The notes beneath the pieces were generated by a model. The model did no database searches and was not told the origin of the DNA. It saw nothing but the letters and a program-made list of their open reading frames with translations. From NCBI GenBank assembly GCA_000004985.1, contig GG738871.1: a DNA stretch of 64,000 nucleotides; one strand, 5' to 3'. Source of the DNA: Naegleria gruberi (lineage: Eukaryota). Below, piece after piece: positions 6,871 through 52,839 of this stretch (positions are counted from its first letter, which is position 1; every line of letters begins with the position of its first letter). The position numbers and the translations under genes are program-made.

Positions 6871-9639
6871 ATGTACTGCAGTAGTACCTCATCGCCAACT
6901 GCTGATACTACTCTGAATAATAACAACAACAGTTCAGTGGAAGACGAAAGCACTAAGAGACGATATTTCAGAGATATACCGATCGTTAAATTTCCAACAG
7001 ATTATGTGCAACGGAATGATGTTTACATGTACACTGAAGATATATCCTACTTTTTGGGAGGTATAATTCCTGCTTCCGATATTGAAAGTTTATTTGAGGA
7101 ATTTAGAAAAATTTGTCCCAAGAAGATTAAACACGAGCAACAAGAAGTTGTAACTTTTAAATATAAAAAGCAGAGTAAAAAGAGGAAGAAAAAGATATTT
7201 GATACTATAAAGGAACGAATGTTGACTTTTCAAGAAGGACATACAAAGTCAACACCAAGAAGTGTCATAGAGGCAACGAGGAATGCTGAAAGATTCTGTT
7301 TTTTGAATGCAGAACGAGTTCATTCAATGTTTTTAAATGCACTTGTGGAATCTGAATCGGATTTACCTGTTGCTTTCATCTTGTTGAGATCGATTTTGGA
7401 CGAAAAGATAATCAAATCTCCATATAAATCATCAATAGGAATTCATGCAGATTATCCATCTATGGAGCAGAAACAAGAGGGAAAAATGGATATTGTCTTT
7501 CCTCCAGAATTTAAACGTTCGAAACATGCATTGTGGACTATTAGGAAAAAAAATACAAAGGAAATGGAATCGGAAAAGAAAAAGCCCTCAACAGAAGAAA
7601 AGAATTCCAAGTCTGCAACATCTTCAACATCCAAACCAGCTGAAGCACCATCGTCTTCTGGAAAATCGTCAGAAAAGGAGGAAAGGGAAGAATCTCTATT
7701 CCTTCCATTGGGTGGGCATGAAAGTTCCATAGACTCACCAAAAATTATAGAAAAAACGAGTAATAGCACCACTACCAATAATACTAAGAATATTTCTCAA
7801 CCAATAATTCCAACATTTACTCACAGTTTAATATCAATAGGAAAATCAGTGAGAGTTTTATATTCAATGGATACTAGTAAGAATAATTCAATCAATTTAA
7901 CGATATCAATTAAGGAATATGATGAAGCTATCAAGGCAACAGAGAAACAGACGAGAAACATCACTCTAACTGATAATAGAGTTAAGGAATTGTGGATTTT
8001 GGACTATGCATTTGGATTGAGCTATTCTGGAGGAATTGCGGGAATACCCTCGTCTCAGTACTTTAATTCTGGACTATCTGTGGTTTTGGATAAAAGTTTA
8101 CAGCCAATGTTGGAACAGATAAGGACTAAAATCAATATCCCTTGCGTACCCTTCTCAGAGAGTATTCTCAAGAAGGATGTCAAATCTCCTCAACAATTGT
8201 CCAGACTATGTGAGGAAATGGTCACCGACTCATCAGATGCACCATCGACCAATACCACAAGTGCAAGCAGTACAATGACTGATAACACGACAGATAATTG
8301 TCCACCTGTAAATAATATTGAATCCTCTTCCTCCTTCATTATTCCACCAACAACTAGTATTATCCCTCCTGTAAATAAGAGTAAATCAAGCGAAGAACAA
8401 CAACCTAAGACAAACTCTCAAGAGTTTACTAATCACTTCACACTTCCCGATGATGGCAAAATAGATTTGAATAAGTGTGATATTAGCATAACTTATGCTC
8501 CATGGGAAGAGGCATCTAGTCCAGTTGGTAGCAATAATGATGCATATTCTGATAGCCACTCTGTCTTTTTCGATGATGACGATCATGAATTATATATTAA
8601 TAGGAAGAGAAAGAATATGGAAGACCCTTCGAGCAGCGATGAGGAGGAGGAGGATGAGAATGATGAAACGTCAAAGAAAGGAAAAATTAATGAGCCAGAA
8701 GAAGAGTTAGAACCTCATCATATTACTGTACTTAAACGATTATTACAGTTCCAGTTGATTCGAGAAGAAGATTACGATAACAAACTCAAATTTTTCCAAG
8801 CCATCAATGAATATAGATCAGGATCTCTTCAATCCCTCCAAAAAATCATCAATTCCGAAATGGAGAGCCTGAACAATTTTACAGAGTATGAAAACTTTAT
8901 TTGTCCTCTGTCTAAGAAATTCATTTTGGATCCTGTTCTGGCTACAGATGGATTACTCTATGATAGAACGGCACTCTCTCAATGGATGATAACCTTCTCC
9001 TCTGTTTCATTGCTTGGTGGCTGTAGAGTGACATCCTTTACAAATATGCCATCTGCTGTTGAGGAAATTAATAGAATTCTCTCCAAAAAAATTGGACATT
9101 GTATTGAATTTATTGAGCAAATTGTCGAACAAAAAGTTTATTGCATTGATTTAATTCCTTTAATAGATCAAGTTGTATATTATGATTCTACCCTCAAACG
9201 GTATAGACGAAAATTGTTGGATTTTAAGGAAAAAATTATCTATCAAAATATTTCAACTATTGCAAATGGTCAGGATAGATATTTTGATTGTGGAAAGGAA
9301 ATTTTAGAGTTGGAAACTGAAAAGAATGTAAGAATTCAATATTCAATATCCATGTTGGAGAAGAACCCAAACCCTGACTATTACACATACTTCTCCCATG
9401 TTATTTATGAGTGTTGCAACCGTTCTATCAATGAATTGAAACAGGTTCCAAATTTGTCAACACAAATTCTCAACAATATTCTGACTGTTCTATTTCTCAA
9501 AAGAGAGTTTAATCATCCTCAATTCTTTAGTTCTGTAAATATTGATCTTTTCACTCAACCGACAGCTAATCATTGGATGCACATGCTAATACTCCTCTCT
9601 CAAACTGAGGCAGAGATTCTTGCATCAAATCATCAGTAA
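6871..9639 (+). CDS. Large (922 aa) U-box domain protein, putative E3 ubiquitin ligase; rest of protein uncharacterised, acidic/Ser-rich linker
   Basis: Single long ORF. The C-terminal region contains a U-box-like motif FICPLSKKFILDPVLATDGLLYDRTALSQWM (compare the canonical F-CPI-----DPV---G-TYER--I--W). There are poly-acidic stretches (SSSDEEEEDENDE). Confidence 0.55.
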   Translation: MYCSSTSSPTADTTLNNNNNSSVEDESTKRRYFRDIPIVKFPTDYVQRNDVYMYTEDISYFLGGIIPASDIESLFEEFRKICPKKIKHEQQEVVTFKYKKQSKKRKKKIFDTIKERMLTFQEGHTKSTPRSVIEATRNAERFCFLNAERVHSMFLNALVESESDLPVAFILLRSILDEKIIKSPYKSSIGIHADYPSMEQKQEGKMDIVFPPEFKRSKHALWTIRKKNTKEMESEKKKPSTEEKNSKSATSSTSKPAEAPSSSGKSSEKEEREESLFLPLGGHESSIDSPKIIEKTSNSTTTNNTKNISQPIIPTFTHSLISIGKSVRVLYSMDTSKNNSINLTISIKEYDEAIKATEKQTRNITLTDNRVKELWILDYAFGLSYSGGIAGIPSSQYFNSGLSVVLDKSLQPMLEQIRTKINIPCVPFSESILKKDVKSPQQLSRLCEEMVTDSSDAPSTNTTSASSTMTDNTTDNCPPVNNIESSSSFIIPPTTSIIPPVNKSKSSEEQQPKTNSQEFTNHFTLPDDGKIDLNKCDISITYAPWEEASSPVGSNNDAYSDSHSVFFDDDDHELYINRKRKNMEDPSSSDEEEEDENDETSKKGKINEPEEELEPHHITVLKRLLQFQLIREEDYDNKLKFFQAINEYRSGSLQSLQKIINSEMESLNNFTEYENFICPLSKKFILDPVLATDGLLYDRTALSQWMITFSSVSLLGGCRVTSFTNMPSAVEEINRILSKKIGHCIEFIEQIVEQKVYCIDLIPLIDQVVYYDSTLKRYRRKLLDFKEKIIYQNISTIANGQDRYFDCGKEILELETEKNVRIQYSISMLEKNPNPDYYTYFSHVIYECCNRSINELKQVPNLSTQILNNILTVLFLKREFNHPQFFSSVNIDLFTQPTANHWMHMLILLSQTEAEILASNHQ

Positions 9640-10421: not shown

Positions 10422-10576
10422 ACTCCAACTATTAGAAACATTTCAATTATTTCATTATCAAATTATGTATTTTAAAATTTAAAACTCAATAATATCACAT
10501 TTAAATTAAAATACTAAAATTTTTATTGATCTTTACCACCATCAAATGTCACCTGCCAAAAACATTATTAAAAAAA

Positions 10577-31333: not shown

Positions 31334-33004
31334 TCAATTTACTAATTGGTTATTCTTCTTGACCTTACTCAAAGTGCATTTCAAAATGAAATCAGTATCA
31401 TTTCGCAAAGATTCATCGACAAATTCAATAGCATCCTCACATTGATGAATTGCCTCCCAAACCACATCTCTATCTTTTTTCAGTTCACCCCCTACATATC
31501 TCAATGCCATTCCATCTTGTTTTACAGCTACTAAGGCCAGCTCCTTATCATTCTGGAGAACATATCGAGCATATCGAATCATTGAACCATTTTGTTTAAC
31601 TCCTTCCATGAACACTTCCTTGTCTTCCAACATGTCTCTGAAGAGAAATCCCAAAGTGAGTGGATTTTTCCTTACCAATTTCAATACAATTTCTCTATCT
31701 TGTAAAATGTGATCCTTTCTATCTTCACGAATGCTCCCATTATAAGGAATACACCCCAAAGCATTGATATTCAAATCAATGGCTTCCTCAAGGAATGAAT
31801 AATCTTTGATAAGTTCAGGATCAGCAGACGAAATTGAGTAATAATCCAACCTCATTGCTGTCAACATGATTTGTGCATCAGCTTTAAATTCCTGTCCAAT
31901 GTAAAAACAGGATCCACGTACTTGACTAACCAGTTCCAGAATGAACTCCCTATTTTTCATCAATTCTTCATCAACCCTCAATAATGATTCAGGTTGAATT
32001 TTAGCCACTAAAAATATTACACTCTTATTCTTTTTCAAATCCTCATTCAAATATTCGATAGCATCCAATGATTCATTCAGAGCAGTCAGTGCCAATTCCA
32101 AATCATTTTTCAATTCTCCCCATGCATATTGAATGCAGAGTGGATTGGCACAAATGGCCTTCTTCATAAATTCCTTGTCAGATCGAATGGACATGTCCTC
32201 ATCGAGTAGACATTCAGGATCTTTTGATATTTTTGAAAGTAGCAACTCTTCTTCATATAGTGAATCATATCCTGATTGACCATATGCTACTTTCAATACT
32301 TCATCATCATCTTCAAATTCTTTAGCATATTCAATTGCATTTCCATTCTGTTTCACTGCTTCCAACACAATTTCCTTATCAATAAATTCGGCAAATTCCA
32401 AAGCAAATCCATTTTGTTTGACAGCTGCCAAAACGACTTGTTTATCCTCTTTGAGTGTGAAATGAACAAATTCCAAAGCATACCCATTTCTCTCTACAAT
32501 TTTCATTACAAATTCCTTATCAATATTCAATGGAGTAATTCTCAAATATTCCAAACTATGTCCAAGAGCAATATCCACAATTTCTTTATCAGATTTAAAT
32601 GCATTATCACAATAAACAAACGAATTCGGACTATTCCTAATAGCAGTCAATACAATTTCTCGATCCATTCTCAATTCCTCACTCAAATGTTTCAACAAAT
32701 TTCCATTTCTCTGCAGGGCGAATAATAAAACTCTCCTATTTGACTTGACATCTTCTGATATGAAAATCCTCTCAGGATCCATAAATCTAATAGCAGCCAT
32801 ATATAATTCCGGATCATTTCCAATCATGGCTGCTAATTCAGGTGAATGTTCAACACATTTCAAAATATTCCTCTCGTGTGTGAATTTTTGTGCAAGTAAT
32901 TGATGAAGATCGTGATGGGAACAATACGATAAAGGTGAATCATCACTCAAAATAATATTAACCCTGACTTGATGGTCGTGTGATTCAGCTTGTTGTTGAG
33001 ACAT
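31334..33004 (-). CDS. DUF4116-repeat protein (tandem about 30-aa helical repeats)
   Basis: 556-aa intronless ORF built from repeats of the type KEIVLTAIRNSPNSFVYCDNAFKSDKEIV, VVLAAVKQNGFALEFAEFIDKEIVLEAVKQNGNAIEYAKEF and KELALVAVKQDGMALRYVGGELKKDRDVVWEAI. These match the DUF4116 consensus (AL-YAS-EL--D-E-VL-AV-QNG-AL). Confidence 0.6.
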   Translation of the reverse strand: MSQQQAESHDHQVRVNIILSDDSPLSYCSHHDLHQLLAQKFTHERNILKCVEHSPELAAMIGNDPELYMAAIRFMDPERIFISEDVKSNRRVLLFALQRNGNLLKHLSEELRMDREIVLTAIRNSPNSFVYCDNAFKSDKEIVDIALGHSLEYLRITPLNIDKEFVMKIVERNGYALEFVHFTLKEDKQVVLAAVKQNGFALEFAEFIDKEIVLEAVKQNGNAIEYAKEFEDDDEVLKVAYGQSGYDSLYEEELLLSKISKDPECLLDEDMSIRSDKEFMKKAICANPLCIQYAWGELKNDLELALTALNESLDAIEYLNEDLKKNKSVIFLVAKIQPESLLRVDEELMKNREFILELVSQVRGSCFYIGQEFKADAQIMLTAMRLDYYSISSADPELIKDYSFLEEAIDLNINALGCIPYNGSIREDRKDHILQDREIVLKLVRKNPLTLGFLFRDMLEDKEVFMEGVKQNGSMIRYARYVLQNDKELALVAVKQDGMALRYVGGELKKDRDVVWEAIHQCEDAIEFVDESLRNDTDFILKCTLSKVKKNNQLVN

Positions 33005-33315: not shown

Positions 33316-35583
33316 TTATTCCAGAATTGAGAGTGAGATTATCATTTTAGTATTAGGATCTCTCTTCAAGTCGTACTTGTTCATTTCAATCATTCCAAGA
33401 TCGTATCCCTTCATACTACTCAAATCTTTAACAATTTGATCAGTTCCGAAATATGGATGGCTCACAACAGAATTATCAGTAAATCCATGTCCAAGAGTAA
33501 TACACTCAACTCCATTAATTGAAACAACATGTCCTTGATCAACTACCAAATTATAGACATAATCACAGGCAACATCTTGAGGTGATTTGATATCGATTGG
33601 GAATTTCCATTCACCCTTAACTCTTACAGGGTGATATGGGGTAATGTACATTCCATTCATTTCACACAATTTGACAATAGGGGAAGGAGTCTTGCTCTTC
33701 AAGACGCATAAAATAGTGGCATATGAATCACCATTCATGTTCTTAACTCTGTCTCCTTTCTTAATTTCAGAAACCTTCTTGACAGAGTTGTCATACATTG
33801 TGATTAATGAATTACCATCGAAGCAAGAACCACCTGCATTGTAGTATGAGCTCATGTTTGTTGGGGTGTTATAGCTGCCACCACCATAGGAATAGACATT
33901 TGATGGTTTTGGAGGAGGAAGTTTACAAAAGATGTCATCTGCAACAGATTGCAAAGCTTCAAACAAGCTTCCACCAAAGATTTGAACACTTGGGTCTTTG
34001 AAATTGTGGCATTGTTGCATCCAGTTAGCACGAAGGAGAGAAGGCAAATAGTGATAACCCCACTTATTCATGAACTCTTGTTTGGAGAAGGCAATAGATA
34101 CTTGACCTTCGTTTGTATTGTCACTCTTAATATCTCTAACTAGAGCACTGACACGTTCATCTGTAAAGGATGGTAATTTGGCAATAGTTTGCAAGAAGGA
34201 TTCTAATTGATGTTTGCATTCCTTACTACTGTCATCTCTGCTACTGTTACCATTTCTGTAGGTTTGAATACATTTTTCAACACATTCAATGAACATTAAT
34301 CTTGTCAAGTTGGCATCCATATCAGTAGCTTGTTCTGAGGAGAGTGATTGATTAACAGGTTCAACTTTTTCAATAGAATGGTGATTGTAAGTGAGATCAA
34401 CCTTAATGGCAGGCAAATTATTGGCATGCATATCGACATCAATAATATAATCTCTTGATTGTTGGAATTGAACTCCTCCCATTGAAATTGTGAATTGTTT
34501 TTCATTGGTACTGTTATTTCCATTTTGACTGGAACCGTAAACGTGTGAAATCTTGGCACCGTTCATTGAGGAAATGACCAACTCGGCTCTTCTAACAGCA
34601 GTACATAAAATATTACTCATCATGTTAACAAATGTTGTTCCAACCATGGAACAATCAGGAATATAAGAGTAAGCTCCACTTCCATTCATTGCAATATCTT
34701 TCAATAAGGCACTATCCAAACTGTATCCAAATCCAAAGCTGTGAATTGTGGAATTCAATGGATGTTCCTTAATGTACTTTTCAAGAGTTGGGACAATACC
34801 TCTTGGAGGATTAATGTTAGGTTCACCATCTGTGAATAGAATCAAACAAGTATTGGTCTTTGCACAGAGAGGATTATTAAGACTGGATTCCATTCCCAAT
34901 CTCAAACCATCCCATACATTGGTAGATCCTTCAGGTCCTAAATGTTCCAACTTTTCAATGGCCTTCTTCTTACCAACTGCATCCATTTTAGTGAGAGGAA
35001 GTTCCATTCTTGCAGAATCACTGAATGGAATGAGAGAAATTTGATCCTTTTCATTCATTAATTCAATAAGAGTTCTAACAGAGTGCTTGACCAAATCCAA
35101 TCTTGAAAATCCAGTATTTTCATTGGAAGAACTCAAATCTTCAGCACTAGATCCCATACTTCCACTCACATCGAGAATGCATACCAAATTACATGGTTGA
35201 CGTTGACCTCCAGTAGGTGGTGATACCTTAACATGAATTCTTCTCTTTGATTCACTCACTTGCTTTGAAACAATTGTCAAATTCAAAGAATGATCTTCAA
35301 TATCTTGCTCAACCAATGGTGTGACTCTATTCACAACAATAGGAGTATTTCCATGAACCAATTGTTCAATAGTATTTCTCAAAGCAATATTCGATACCAA
35401 CAACTCCTTGCTCATGGCTTCTCTTGTCAATGGTGAAGTAGCATGAATAGTCAACCAATGTTCAATTGCTTCTCTTTCATAGGTTTGACCATCGGTACCA
35501 ATAACAGGATCTTTCATAATTTCCTGTGTGATTGGACAATAAAATTCATTTGGATAATTTCTTTGAGTTGATGATGATGACAT
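33316..35583 (-). CDS. U-box - von Willebrand factor A - Hint/Vint-domain protein (putative self-processing E3 ligase)
   Basis: 755-aa intronless ORF. There is an N-terminal U-box (FYCPITQEIMKDPVIGTDGQTYEREAIEHWL). A vWA domain follows with the MIDAS motif (CILDVSGSMGSS...TDGEPN). The C-terminal Hint-like domain begins with a nucleophilic Cys (SCFDGNSLITMYDNSVKKVSEIKKGDRV) and has a TxxH block (ITPYHPVRV). Confidence 0.7.
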   Translation of the reverse strand: MSSSSTQRNYPNEFYCPITQEIMKDPVIGTDGQTYEREAIEHWLTIHATSPLTREAMSKELLVSNIALRNTIEQLVHGNTPIVVNRVTPLVEQDIEDHSLNLTIVSKQVSESKRRIHVKVSPPTGGQRQPCNLVCILDVSGSMGSSAEDLSSSNENTGFSRLDLVKHSVRTLIELMNEKDQISLIPFSDSARMELPLTKMDAVGKKKAIEKLEHLGPEGSTNVWDGLRLGMESSLNNPLCAKTNTCLILFTDGEPNINPPRGIVPTLEKYIKEHPLNSTIHSFGFGYSLDSALLKDIAMNGSGAYSYIPDCSMVGTTFVNMMSNILCTAVRRAELVISSMNGAKISHVYGSSQNGNNSTNEKQFTISMGGVQFQQSRDYIIDVDMHANNLPAIKVDLTYNHHSIEKVEPVNQSLSSEQATDMDANLTRLMFIECVEKCIQTYRNGNSSRDDSSKECKHQLESFLQTIAKLPSFTDERVSALVRDIKSDNTNEGQVSIAFSKQEFMNKWGYHYLPSLLRANWMQQCHNFKDPSVQIFGGSLFEALQSVADDIFCKLPPPKPSNVYSYGGGSYNTPTNMSSYYNAGGSCFDGNSLITMYDNSVKKVSEIKKGDRVKNMNGDSYATILCVLKSKTPSPIVKLCEMNGMYITPYHPVRVKGEWKFPIDIKSPQDVACDYVYNLVVDQGHVVSINGVECITLGHGFTDNSVVSHPYFGTDQIVKDLSSMKGYDLGMIEMNKYDLKRDPNTKMIISLSILE

Positions 35584-36733: not shown

Positions 36734-37976
36734 TTAATTATTGAAATTCAAAGTATCAAAGAAGGATTTCACTTGATTTTCCATATCTTGAATGTACTTT
36801 TCCTGTTCTTCCTCTTTGCCAATGAACCAACTTTGATAACAAGTCAAACACATGGCAAACGAAACTGCATTGAAATATTTCCTCCGTTCTTGATATCCTT
36901 TCCAGAAGGTTTCTGGATTCATATTTAGAGAAGGAAGAAGGTGTTTGTTCATTGATTCAATCATGAATTCTCGTTCTTCATCGTTGGTTGCATAATTATA
37001 AAGCATTTCTGAAATATCTTCATCAATGATTGAGAAGGAAGACCATTCCCAGTCAATTATGCCAGTAATGACTTTTGTTTGAGGATCTACAAGTGTATTA
37101 TTTGGAGTAATATCAATATGGCAAATTGACATTAAATTATACGGAAACTCTATTGTTGTTTCTAACATGTTCAATAAATCGTTGGAATTTAGTAACAAAG
37201 TAAGATAAGGAACCATTCTTGATAATTTTCATATCTTCCAATCGAAAATCAATTAAGGAAATGATGTAATCATTGAAAGAACGGAATGGACCTTTTAAGG
37301 TATCACAATTAGGACCAATGAGGGCAAGTACTTGACCATTTTTCATTTCAATACCTTGATAACATCCAAATAAGGGATTTGGCCCAGCTTGATCGTTATC
37401 ACAAGTTCTTGTGAGGAATTTTAAATCACTCAATTTGGATCTTTCCTTAACTATTTGATTCAAGTAATGTTTTCTTTCGTCAGTGGTCATGTCACCATAA
37501 ATTGTGTTCAATGTTATTCCTTCACACTTTGACATGAAAATGTATTCGTTTCCAATTAAATCACCTTCACAATCGTATCCATAAATGGTTGGCACTGGAA
37601 AATCTTTAACATTCTCACTAAGGAATTGGATCACCAACACTTCATTGAGAGTTTTCAATCTTTTCCAATTTGGGGGCAAAATTTTTACAATGCTCTTCAA
37701 TTCCTTATCATTTAATTTAATGGTCAAACAATAGACAGCATTGACAACTCCATTATCAATTTGTTGCACATCTATTGCTAATACACAAGTATCCGCATTG
37801 GTGCCATATTCGAAACCAATTCTTTCAGAAAGATCTCTTCGAAAGTCAGCACATTCCACCGCCGATTTGTTAATAATCTTGAATGCCTTTTCATTATCCA
37901 ATTGAATATCATAACGAGTGGATTCTCTCATTTTTTCTAGTGAATGAATTTCAACTTTGAATATTAACCACTTCAA
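36734..37976 (-). CDS. Aminoglycoside-phosphotransferase-like / choline-ethanolamine-kinase-like (APH fold) protein
   Basis: Two overlapping ORFs (37137..37976 and 36734..37216) in different frames. The downstream one carries the Brenner catalytic motif HIDITPNNTLVD and the metal-binding ITGIIDWEWS (compare HGDLHPGNIL...IDWE). They can be joined by a 52-nt intron with a weak donor (G|GTTCCT...TGTTAG|AA, phase 1), or there is a frameshift. Confidence 0.55.
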
Positions 37977-50619: not shown

Positions 50620-52839
50620 ATGCTCAATCATCTACCGGATGAAGTTCTTCATCTTATTGGTCAATTTATCATCAGTACAGACCAAGACCTTCTGGAATCC
50701 CTCTACGAAAGACAAATACAACCCTCTTCCTCAACTCTTGCACAATTTCCCTTCCGATCTATTGTCAAGCACTCTATCACAGCTTGCCATTACTACTTTT
50801 TTCTTCTCGGAATGTTGAACAAGGAGTTTCATCATCGAGTCAACAATAATCCATACTTTTGGAAGAGGAACTTATTCTATTTGGATCAATTAACTAGAGT
50901 TAATCAGATTGGACATTTCTCAGCAGACAATGATGAGGATTTATATGAGGAGGAATATGATGAAGAAACGGATGAAATTATTCAAGTATTGGTTAGGGAG
51001 AGAGAACCAGCTAGAGTTATTAATTATAAACAAATTAGAGAAATGATGGAGAAGTGTGAATTGAGCAGAGTGTTTTTAAAAGTGGAAAACAAATTGATTC
51101 AAACAATGGTGGATGAATTTTCAAATTCTTATCATGTTAGGGAGTTGATAATTGATTGTAGGAATGTGGATATGTTTTCAGTGTTTGATTTAATTGTTCA
51201 TCATTGTCCTTTCATTGTGAAGGTGAGAATTTTGGTGGAGACATTAAGAACTGATTGCGTTGTGAAACGAATTTATCAGCAAGACTCTTTAAAAGTTAAA
51301 TGTCCACTGAAACAATTGAGAATTATAAATCCACAAACGAATAATTTAACTGATTCTACTAGGAGAGTATTTGATCAGTTGATGGAAAATTATCTTCCCG
51401 AAATGAGTGATATTGAGGAAATTGCACTACCATTTTGGACACCATCCATACTCGATTCTATATCTTTGAATTGTAGACATGTGAAAAAGTTAATTCTATT
51501 AGGAGAGTTGGCTCCAGGTGAATACAACCAAAGTTTTGAGAATATTTGTAACAATATAGAGGCATTGGAATCTTTTATAATTTCCAAATCTGTAGTGAGG
51601 GGATTTTATGTGGATATTGGACAAGCTCATTTCATGAGAATTCTAACCAAATTTTCAAAAACCTTGAAAGAGTTTGTGATGGGAACCAATCTCTCAAGAT
51701 TTTCATCACCTCGTCCTGAAGAATCTGTTCAATTTGAAGAGGAATTGGCTGCAAACCTACCAACACAATTGGAAACACTCATCATTGAAAATATTCCAGA
51801 TCACTATTATAATTCCAGCACTCCTCTTGCATTTATTAACATTCTTACTAGTTTATTCAATAGGAATCAGACCAATAATTTTCAATTCCATTTCAAGAAT
51901 TTAATAATTGATTTGAATAATTTTCATTTGGATAATTTTAATTCCATCTCTATGAGACATGTTCAAAATTTATATTTGAGATTATCCAACAGTGAGGAAA
52001 TTTTTTTGTATTTATCAAAGAGAGAATATGCTTCAAACATTAAAACTCTGACACTGGATTTGTTTCTCTCCACTATAAGTGAAGCATCAAACATGTTGAG
52101 ACAACCATTCTTCTCTAATGTAGAAAATTTGATACTTGTTAATTATGGAAATTCCTTGACTGATTTGACACCCCTGTCTATTATTCCAAATATAAGGAGT
52201 TTGAAATTAATGTCATATTTAAATCAACCTTATGAATCACTCTACAGTGAAGATATACCTATGAGGAACACATTATCTAATCCAGGAACTTGTTTCATGT
52301 TCAACACTTCACCATCTTTGGAAGAGATTGGGGTATCAATTGATGAAGATTTGGATTTATTTGAGTTGGATATATTTACAAATATCAAATCCATGACAAT
52401 TGATTCACAGTACTTTTATTCAGATATTTTGAGAGTTTTGTCTCCTCTGACAAGAAAATTTTCCAAATTGGAAAGTTTTGATATTTCTATTCACTCTGAT
52501 TTGATAATTGATTGCACTGTTTCAGAAAAATTGAGAATTATGAAGAATATCAAGTATGCAAGTTTATCTATTGAAGGTGATGAAGATTGCAATAATGGAT
52601 TGGAATTGTTAATTTTATTTTATATTATCACATTTGGAGCATTTGTTTCGGATTTCAAATGTCACTCGTTGAAAGAACCTAGTGAGGATATTATTTCAAT
52701 ATTTGATGATATATTTTACAAATTCATCTCAGAGGACGATCATTCAATGCATGAAGAAATTAACCAATCTTTTACAAGACAAATAATTGAACGTTTGAAT
52801 TTTAGAAATTCATCTGATTCAATGGAGGAAGAAGAATAA
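50620..52839 (+). CDS. F-box protein with degenerate LRR-like C-terminal region
   Basis: 739-aa intronless ORF. There is an N-terminal F-box (MLNHLPDEVLHLIGQFI...LLESLY). It starts only 116 nt after the PaiB stop on the same strand. Confidence 0.5.
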   Translation: MLNHLPDEVLHLIGQFIISTDQDLLESLYERQIQPSSSTLAQFPFRSIVKHSITACHYYFFLLGMLNKEFHHRVNNNPYFWKRNLFYLDQLTRVNQIGHFSADNDEDLYEEEYDEETDEIIQVLVREREPARVINYKQIREMMEKCELSRVFLKVENKLIQTMVDEFSNSYHVRELIIDCRNVDMFSVFDLIVHHCPFIVKVRILVETLRTDCVVKRIYQQDSLKVKCPLKQLRIINPQTNNLTDSTRRVFDQLMENYLPEMSDIEEIALPFWTPSILDSISLNCRHVKKLILLGELAPGEYNQSFENICNNIEALESFIISKSVVRGFYVDIGQAHFMRILTKFSKTLKEFVMGTNLSRFSSPRPEESVQFEEELAANLPTQLETLIIENIPDHYYNSSTPLAFINILTSLFNRNQTNNFQFHFKNLIIDLNNFHLDNFNSISMRHVQNLYLRLSNSEEIFLYLSKREYASNIKTLTLDLFLSTISEASNMLRQPFFSNVENLILVNYGNSLTDLTPLSIIPNIRSLKLMSYLNQPYESLYSEDIPMRNTLSNPGTCFMFNTSPSLEEIGVSIDEDLDLFELDIFTNIKSMTIDSQYFYSDILRVLSPLTRKFSKLESFDISIHSDLIIDCTVSEKLRIMKNIKYASLSIEGDEDCNNGLELLILFYIITFGAFVSDFKCHSLKEPSEDIISIFDDIFYKFISEDDHSMHEEINQSFTRQIIERLNFRNSSDSMEEEE

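What the first reader, a model, noticed from the sequence alone, without database searches (positions are those of the whole stretch)
33316..35583. U-box + vWA + Hint (Vint-type) single-polypeptide architecture
The 755-aa protein combines an N-terminal U-box E3-ligase domain, a vWA domain with an intact MIDAS motif, and a C-terminal Hint-like autoprocessing domain that begins with a nucleophilic Cys (CFDG...) and contains a TxxH block. vWA-Hint (Vint) proteins are known, but fusing a U-box to them would be unusual. It suggests a ubiquitin ligase whose vWA-bound cargo or C-terminal module can be released by Hint-mediated self-cleavage. A second, unrelated large U-box protein lies at 6871..9639.
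Basis: partly seen in the sequence, partly recalled or inferred. Interest (0 to 1): 0.55.

Follow-up and report, generated by a model that had tools for sequence, protein, structure and literature searches.

The report
Known U-box–vWA–Vint self-cleaving ligase family

Summary

The claim that the U-box fusion is unusual is not. Bürglin (2008), who defined Vint and Vwaint, already reported a U-box in front of the vWA domain. About 112 of the best 120 database hits share all four domains. Orthologues in Naegleria lovaniensis and N. fowleri are 60-61% identical. A query without the U-box finds about 4,000 clusters, and roughly 43-48% of the closest ones carry a U-box.

The most likely function is a cytosolic U-box E3 ligase. 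Its vWA module would bind a partner, and its C-terminal Vint domain would cut itself off at S586|C587. Neither activity has been tested. Interest is low.

The parts
33316..35583 (-). Complete CDS of the 755-aa U-box-vWA-Vwaint-Vint protein, stop codon included
   Evidence: ORF list. Full-length homologues align end to end. The AF2 full-length model has mean pLDDT 87.2.
35356..35553 (-). U-box domain, residues 11-76; putative E2-binding E3 module
   Evidence: Pfam PF04564, 2.4e-18. phmmer against the PDB finds plant PUB U-boxes at 1e-13 and CHIP at about 1e-5. C16, P17, I18, P26, V27, D31, G32, Y35, E36, W43, P51 and N65 are at least 90% conserved. pLDDT is 91-96.
35221..35283 (-). Two beta strands, residues 101-121, preceding the vWA fold
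   Evidence: AF2 secondary structure, E101-108 and E113-121. That they belong to the beta-sandwich is my inference; coordinates were not inspected.
34606..35193 (-). vWA domain, residues 131-326, with a complete MIDAS (D138-x-S140-x-S142, T221, D252)
35158..35172 (-). MIDAS DxSxS motif (DVSGS, residues 138-142)
   Evidence: Translation; conservation.
34363..34602 (-). Beta-sandwich following the vWA domain, residues 328-407
33922..34338 (-). Helical bundle, residues 416-554, containing the Vwaint domain (475-549; window 33937..34161) with the invariant W508-G509 and N527-F-K-D530 motifs
33826..33921 (-). Flexible linker, residues 555-586, ending in the conserved M577-x-Y-Y-N-x-G-G-S586 stretch just before the predicted cleavage site
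   Evidence: Low pLDDT at 565-570 and 582-585. M577 is invariant.
33319..33825 (-). Vint-type Hint domain, residues 587-755
33823..33825 (-). Codon of C587, the predicted Hint nucleophile; the scissile bond is S586|C587
   Evidence: Invariant in alignments of 25, 62, 75 and 150 sequences and in 80 of 80 viral loci. It aligns with position 1 of the Vint model and with the alanine at the corresponding position of 8r2c.
33631..33642 (-). T648-P-Y-H651, Hint motif B (TxxH)
   Evidence: T648 and H651 are invariant. In viral loci T is kept in 79 of 80 and H in 80 of 80.

Best explanation
This is the orthologue, in a Naegleria-like heterolobosean amoeba, of the known eukaryotic and giant-virus 'Vint protein' family, in its U-box-bearing form. 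It has no signal peptide and no membrane segment, so it should act in the cytosol or nucleus. The likely mechanism has three steps, all inferred. (1) The N-terminal U-box recruits a ubiquitin-charged E2, making the protein an E3 ligase. (2) The vWA module, with an intact metal-ion site, together with its beta-sandwich and the Vwaint helical bundle, binds the substrate or a partner. This parallels the plant RING-vWA(-Vwaint) WAV3/SOR1 ligases. (3) The C-terminal Vint domain makes an N-to-S acyl shift at S586|C587, assisted by T648 and H651. The thioester is then resolved by water or by an unknown nucleophile. This releases a 65-kDa U-box-vWA-Vwaint fragment from a 19-kDa Vint fragment. The cut happens only once per molecule, so it would serve maturation or regulation rather than repeated catalysis. 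What is shown here: the domains, the fold, the catalytic residues and strong purifying selection on them. What is inferred: ligase activity, cleavage, and whether any adduct or ligand is involved.
Against: No experiment on any U-box-Vint protein was found in the searchable literature. Neither ligase activity nor cleavage is demonstrated for this protein. The residue before the Cys is Ser here but Gly in most relatives (62 of 80 viral loci) and Pro in 15; the effect on cleavage rate is unknown. Bürglin notes that only Hint motifs A and B are well conserved, while J, K and L are missing, so the chemistry after thioester formation is unclear.
Confidence: 0.7

Rival explanations
1. The Vint domain is a non-cleaving 'pseudo-Hint' that stays attached and serves as a binding or autoinhibitory module. 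The protein would then be simply a multi-domain U-box ligase.
For: Hint motifs beyond A and B are not recognisable (PMC2362128). No cleavage data were found. The linker before C587 varies at position -1, including Pro in 15 viral loci.
Against: The nucleophile Cys and the TxxH His are invariant in every alignment, including 80 of 80 viral loci and 150 diverse representatives. That degree of conservation is what one expects of catalytic residues. The whole Hint fold is retained.
Confidence: 0.15
2. The gene is a recent acquisition from a giant virus, or part of an endogenous giant-virus element, and not a native amoeba gene.
For: 88 loci in IMG/VR giant-virus bins encode full-length relatives. 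14 of them sit next to a family-B DNA polymerase and an ERCC4 nuclease. Most window ORFs tested have no Pfam match, and the neighbouring gene is a DUF4116 repeat protein.
Against: The best viral identity is 39-40%, against 60-61% to Naegleria and 50% to Willaertia. A rough NJ tree follows heterolobosean taxonomy: window, then the other Naegleria, then Willaertia. None of the 20 window ORFs scanned is a giant-virus hallmark gene. ORF coverage of the window (0.75) resembles the N. lovaniensis locus (0.69), not the viral loci (median 0.89).
Confidence: 0.05
3. It works like Hedgehog: a secreted precursor whose Hint domain transfers a sterol onto the N-terminal fragment.
Against: There is no signal peptide. 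PF01079 is below its cut-off and covers only 40 residues. The domain ends 6 residues before the C-terminus and matches Vint over its full length, so there is no separate sterol-recognition region. Bürglin classifies Vint as distinct from Hog.
Confidence: 0.03
4. It is an intein that splices itself out.
Against: There is nothing to splice onto: the Hint domain runs to the C-terminus (...SLSILE*), and there is no terminal His-Asn followed by Cys, Ser or Thr. It is not inserted in a host protein.
Confidence: 0.01

Closest known systems
VWA-Vwaint-Vint ('Vint') proteins of protists, as defined by Bürglin 2008 (PMC2362128), including the U-box-bearing subset; Pfam PF14623 and PF14624
   Same: Identical domain order (U-box, vWA, Vwaint, Vint), no signal peptide, and conserved Hint motifs A (Cys) and B (TxxH). 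The window protein is 60-61% identical to annotated N. lovaniensis and N. fowleri proteins and 50% identical to a Willaertia magna protein.
   Different: Nothing architectural. Only lineage-specific details differ, for example Ser instead of Gly at position -1.
Tetrahymena thermophila Vint domain, crystal structure 8r2c (released 2024)
   Different: The crystallised construct is the isolated Hint domain and has Ala at the position aligned with C587. Whether its parent protein has a U-box was not checked. From memory only, and not verifiable here: the accompanying FEBS Letters paper proposes ligand-regulated cleavage through a C-terminal adduct-recognition region.
Plant WAV3/WAVH/EDA40/SOR1 RING-vWA(-Vwaint) E3 ligases
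   Same: An N-terminal RING-class E2-binding domain is followed by vWA and a Vwaint-like region (PMC2362128; PMC8169666). They are experimentally confirmed E3 ligases (PMC11047095).
   Different: They have a zinc-binding RING instead of a U-box and no Vint domain, hence no self-cleavage.
Hedgehog C-terminal autoprocessing (Hog) domain, bacterial BIL domains and inteins
   Different: There is no sterol-recognition region, no secretion signal and no C-extein or terminal Asn. PF01079 is below its threshold.
vWA + beta-sandwich cores: 4fx5 (Catenulispora), archaeal ArnB/VWA2, Sec23/24 trunk, ITIH heavy chains
   Different: These relatives have no U-box and no Hint domain. The similarity is structural only (15-19% identity).

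Membership tests
Vint-type Hint domain (PF14623) | Significant full-length match to the family profile | tested here: met
   165.1 bits against a cut-off of 27, E 1.6e-48, model positions 1-165 of 166.
Vint-type Hint domain (PF14623) | Hint motif A: nucleophilic Cys as the first residue of the domain | tested here: met
   C587 is invariant in all alignments and in 80 of 80 viral loci.
Vint-type Hint domain (PF14623) | Hint motif B: TxxH | tested here: met
   T648-P-Y-H651. Invariant; kept in 79 and 80 of 80 viral loci.
Vint-type Hint domain (PF14623) | Hint fold matching a solved Vint structure | tested here: met
   [not shown]
Vint-type Hint domain (PF14623) | Autocatalytic cleavage at the X|Cys bond | not testable with these tools
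   Needs protein expression with C587A and H651A controls.
VWA-Vwaint-Vint protein architecture (Bürglin 2008) | vWA, then the Vwaint domain, then a C-terminal Vint, in that order, with no signal peptide | tested here: met
   Domain order from Pfam. Vwaint scores 78.6 bits against a cut-off of 23.5. No hydrophobic N-terminus or membrane segment.
vWA domain with functional MIDAS | DxSxS, a downstream Thr and a downstream Asp | tested here: met
   D138, S140, S142, T221 and D252 are present and conserved. Metal binding itself was not tested.
U-box E3 ligases (PF04564) | Profile match above the cut-off with a conserved core | tested here: met
   66.5 bits against 21.4. Matches plant PUB U-boxes at 1e-13. 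Core residues are at least 90% conserved.
U-box E3 ligases (PF04564) | E2-dependent ubiquitin ligase activity | not testable with these tools
   Requires an in vitro ubiquitination assay.
Hedgehog/Hog proteins | Signal peptide, a Hog domain reaching the PF01079 threshold, and a C-terminal sterol-recognition region | tested here: not met
   PF01079 scores 24.9 bits, below 29.7, over 40 residues. No signal peptide. There is no extension beyond the Vint domain.
Inteins | Insertion within a host protein, with a C-terminal Asn and a downstream Cys, Ser or Thr extein residue | tested here: not met
   The domain is C-terminal; the protein ends ...SLSILE*.

The most novel reading that the evidence does not exclude
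U-box-vWA-Vint proteins could be single-use, ligand-gated E3 ligases. The Hint thioester at residue 586 would not simply be hydrolysed. It would either be triggered by a small or polymeric ligand bound by the Vint domain, or be used to attach the ligase covalently, through its new C-terminus, to a cellular nucleophile. Giant viruses encode this family widely (88 loci in IMG/VR bins, some next to the viral DNA polymerase) and may use the same switch to rewire host ubiquitination. Nothing here excludes this, and nothing here supports it beyond conservation of the catalytic residues and co-conservation of the U-box.
Probability: 0.12. Interest if true: 0.55.

Novelty: already known. Interest (0 to 1): 0.15.

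Why it matters
For this window it matters little. The gene can be annotated with confidence as a U-box/vWA/Vwaint/Vint protein, orthologous to annotated Naegleria genes. The family as a whole is large: about 4,000 clusters at 50% identity. It is ancient, and giant viruses share it. As far as the searchable literature shows, no function has been demonstrated for it, and no cleavage product, adduct, E2 partner or substrate is known. It therefore remains a reasonable target for biochemistry, but this particular copy adds nothing new.

Tried and rejected
- **Exact protein look-up.** Nothing is on record for the window protein. The 99%-identical P0001 lies on a 3,998-nt ENA metagenome contig, which gives no context.
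- **Synteny.** The N. lovaniensis orthologue locus (L081) shares no neighbours with the window.
- **Vint structure paper.** Searches for the 2024 paper and for any U-box-Vint experiment returned only Bürglin 2008. A DOI recalled from memory is not held.
- **Aravind-lab polymorphic-toxin paper and a Phaeocystis genome paper.** Neither mentions this architecture.
- **AFDB50 fold search.** The library was unavailable.
- **BFVD.** Only one viral UniProt entry, R4TII5 (797 aa), aligns over the full length. The other hits are vWA-only.
- **First regex census of viral motifs.** It was too crude and was replaced by an alignment-based count.
- **Conserved neighbours in viral loci.** No ubiquitin or E2 gene recurs. 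Only replication genes do: PolB, ERCC4 and topoisomerase.
- **Pfam scan of all 150 representatives.** It exceeded the size limit, so every second one was scanned instead.
- **Rejected readings.** Intein and Hedgehog-type readings fail their membership tests. The endogenous giant-virus reading is not favoured by identity levels, the rough NJ tree or gene content.

Full report

Yes. Window 33316..35583 on the minus strand is a single 755-aa ORF starting with ATG. At the window's base composition, a 755-codon open frame has a chance probability of about 1e-25.

Four Pfam domains score above their curated cut-offs:
- U-box PF04564, residues 11-76, E 2.4e-18.
- vWA (VWA_2, VWA, VWA_3), residues 132-307, E down to 3e-14.
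- Vwaint PF14624, residues 475-549, E 4.2e-22.
- Vint PF14623, residues 586-749, covering 1-165 of 166 model positions, E 1.6e-48.

Two corrections apply. Second, the 'second U-box protein' at 6871..9639 has only a sub-threshold half U-box (20.2 bits against 21.4, model positions 3-35 of 73). It shares 36% identity over 39 aa with the target's U-box.

**2. Anatomy**

The full-length AlphaFold model was built from a 62-sequence alignment (mean pLDDT 87.2, pTM 0.69). It gives this layout:

| Residues | Element |
|---|---|
| 11-76 | U-box |
| 79-87 | Disordered linker |
| 101-121 | Two beta strands |
| 131-326 | vWA |
| 328-407 | Beta-sandwich |
| 416-554 | Helical bundle containing Vwaint |
| 555-586 | Flexible linker |
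| 587-755 | Vint domain |

- phmmer against PDB sequences agrees: 8r2c at 3.6e-30, plant PUB U-boxes at 1e-13.
- There is no signal peptide or membrane segment: the maximum 19-residue hydropathy is 1.19.

**3. Conservation**

In alignments of 25 and 62 homologues, C587, T648, H651, P652, H699 and H709 are invariant. The MIDAS residues T221 and D252 are also invariant, and D138, S140 and S142 are at least 90% conserved. The Vwaint motifs W508-G509 and N527-F-K-D530 are invariant, and the U-box core residues are at least 90% conserved. Across 150 diverse cluster representatives, the Cys and the three His remain invariant.

**4. How common is the architecture?**

- The homologue search found 663 hits. 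About 112 of the best 120 carry the identical Pfam set, U-box included.
- The closest named proteins are from Naegleria lovaniensis (61% identity), N. fowleri (60%) and Willaertia magna (50%). One database source already names a member 'Hint-domain/U-box domain/VWA / Hh protein intein-like/von Willebrand factor type A domain'.
- To avoid bias from the U-box in the query, I searched 1.84 billion cluster representatives with residues 470-755 only. This gave 4,018 clusters at E up to 1e-3, 2,905 at E up to 1e-10 and 1,205 at E up to 1e-30.
- Of the best 150, home-made HMMs classify 59 as U-box+vWA+Vwaint+Vint, 65 as vWA+Vwaint+Vint, and 26 as fragments.
- A Pfam scan of every second one finds Vint in 75 of 75, Vwaint in 75 of 75, VWA in 51 of 75 and U-box in 32 of 75.
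[quoted passage not shown] It also points out the RING-vWA plant relative At5g60710 (PMC2362128).

The fusion is therefore neither unusual nor new.

**5. Origin of the window and of the gene**

- The window has about 34% GC and moderate ORF coverage (0.75, against 0.69 for the N. lovaniensis locus and a median of 0.89 for viral loci).
- Its genes include RCC1, DUF4116, GH76 and rhodanese families, and many ORFs have no Pfam match.
- In a rough neighbour-joining tree, the window protein (with its 99%-identical metagenomic twin P0001) is sister to N. lovaniensis plus N. fowleri. Willaertia comes next, then other cellular eukaryotes.
- I conclude that the gene is a vertically inherited heterolobosean gene. 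The species is not identified: the exact protein is not on record.

**6. Giant viruses (side finding)**

- A scan of IMG/VR found 88 loci encoding relatives, most of them full length.
- Among the 80 loci fetched, 74 keep the U-box. All 80 keep the Cys and the His, and 79 keep the Thr.
- Fourteen loci place the gene next to a family-B DNA polymerase and an ERCC4 nuclease. Others lie near a type IA topoisomerase. This supports a genuine giant-virus context.
- No ubiquitin or E2 gene recurs as a neighbour.
- In BFVD only one entry, R4TII5, aligns over its full length.

**7. Mechanism (inferred)**

The protein most likely acts as a cytosolic U-box E3 ligase.
- The vWA/MIDAS, beta-sandwich and Vwaint module would bind the partner or substrate. 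The nearest functionally studied relatives are the plant RING-vWA WAV3/SOR1 ligases, which are confirmed E3s (PMC11047095; PMC8169666).
- The C-terminal Vint domain would undergo an N-to-S acyl shift at S586|C587, followed by hydrolysis or transfer to an unknown nucleophile. The products would be fragments of 65.0 and 19.0 kDa.
- Protein splicing is excluded because there is no C-extein: the protein ends ...SLSILE*.
- Hedgehog-type sterol transfer is unlikely. There is no secretion signal, no extension beyond the Vint domain, and PF01079 is below threshold.
- From memory only, and not verifiable with the held library: the 2024 paper that accompanies 8r2c proposes ligand-regulated cleavage through a C-terminal adduct-recognition region.

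**8. Verdict**

The architecture has been published since 2008, is modelled in Pfam, has been partly solved structurally, is annotated in the same genus, and is abundant in metagenomes and giant-virus bins. It counts as already known, and interest is low. The only open question is what the whole family does, and this copy does not make that question more tractable.

Noticed in passing
L001-L080 (IMG/VR loci); e.g. L046:1211-5182 (+) PolB, L046:5177-5914 (-) ERCC4, gene at about L046:5956-8115: Giant-virus metagenome bins widely encode full-length U-box-vWA-Vwaint-Vint proteins: 88 loci, with 74 of 80 keeping the U-box and the catalytic Cys and His kept in all 80. In 14 loci the gene sits next to the viral family-B DNA polymerase and an ERCC4 nuclease. 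I found no discussion of this in the searchable literature.
   Followed up: partly
window 6871..9639 (+): A 922-aa ORF with a low-complexity, Ser/Asn/Glu-rich N-terminal part. At residues 674-714 it has a half U-box (FICPLSKKFILDPVLATDGLLYDRTALSQWM). This is below the Pfam cut-off, and the C-terminal half of the U-box is not recognisable.
   Followed up: partly
window 31334..33004 (-): The immediate downstream neighbour is a 556-aa protein made of about 10 DUF4116 repeats (Pfam E 4e-99). Its function is unknown.
   Followed up: no
window 36734..37216 and 37137..37976 (-): Two overlapping ORFs lie in different frames. The second has a weak APH (phosphotransferase) match. This looks like one gene interrupted by a frameshift or a short intron.
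   Followed up: no
window, 20 ORFs scanned: 13 of the 20 large ORFs scanned have no Pfam match at E up to 1e-3. They include a 1,478-aa ORF at 10526..14962 and a 739-aa ORF at 50620..52839.
   Followed up: no
P0094 (Paratrimastix pyriformis, 1086 aa): This homologue carries an N-terminal protein-arginine methyltransferase region in front of the U-box-vWA-Vint body. It may be a real fusion or a merged gene model.
   Followed up: no
window 33826..33828 (codon of S586) and the aligned column in L001-L080: The residue just before the nucleophilic Cys is Ser in the Naegleria and Willaertia proteins. Among viral relatives it is Gly in 62 of 80 and Pro in 15 of 80. A Pro at position -1 would be unusual for a Hint cleavage site.
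   Followed up: no
[not shown]
   Followed up: partly
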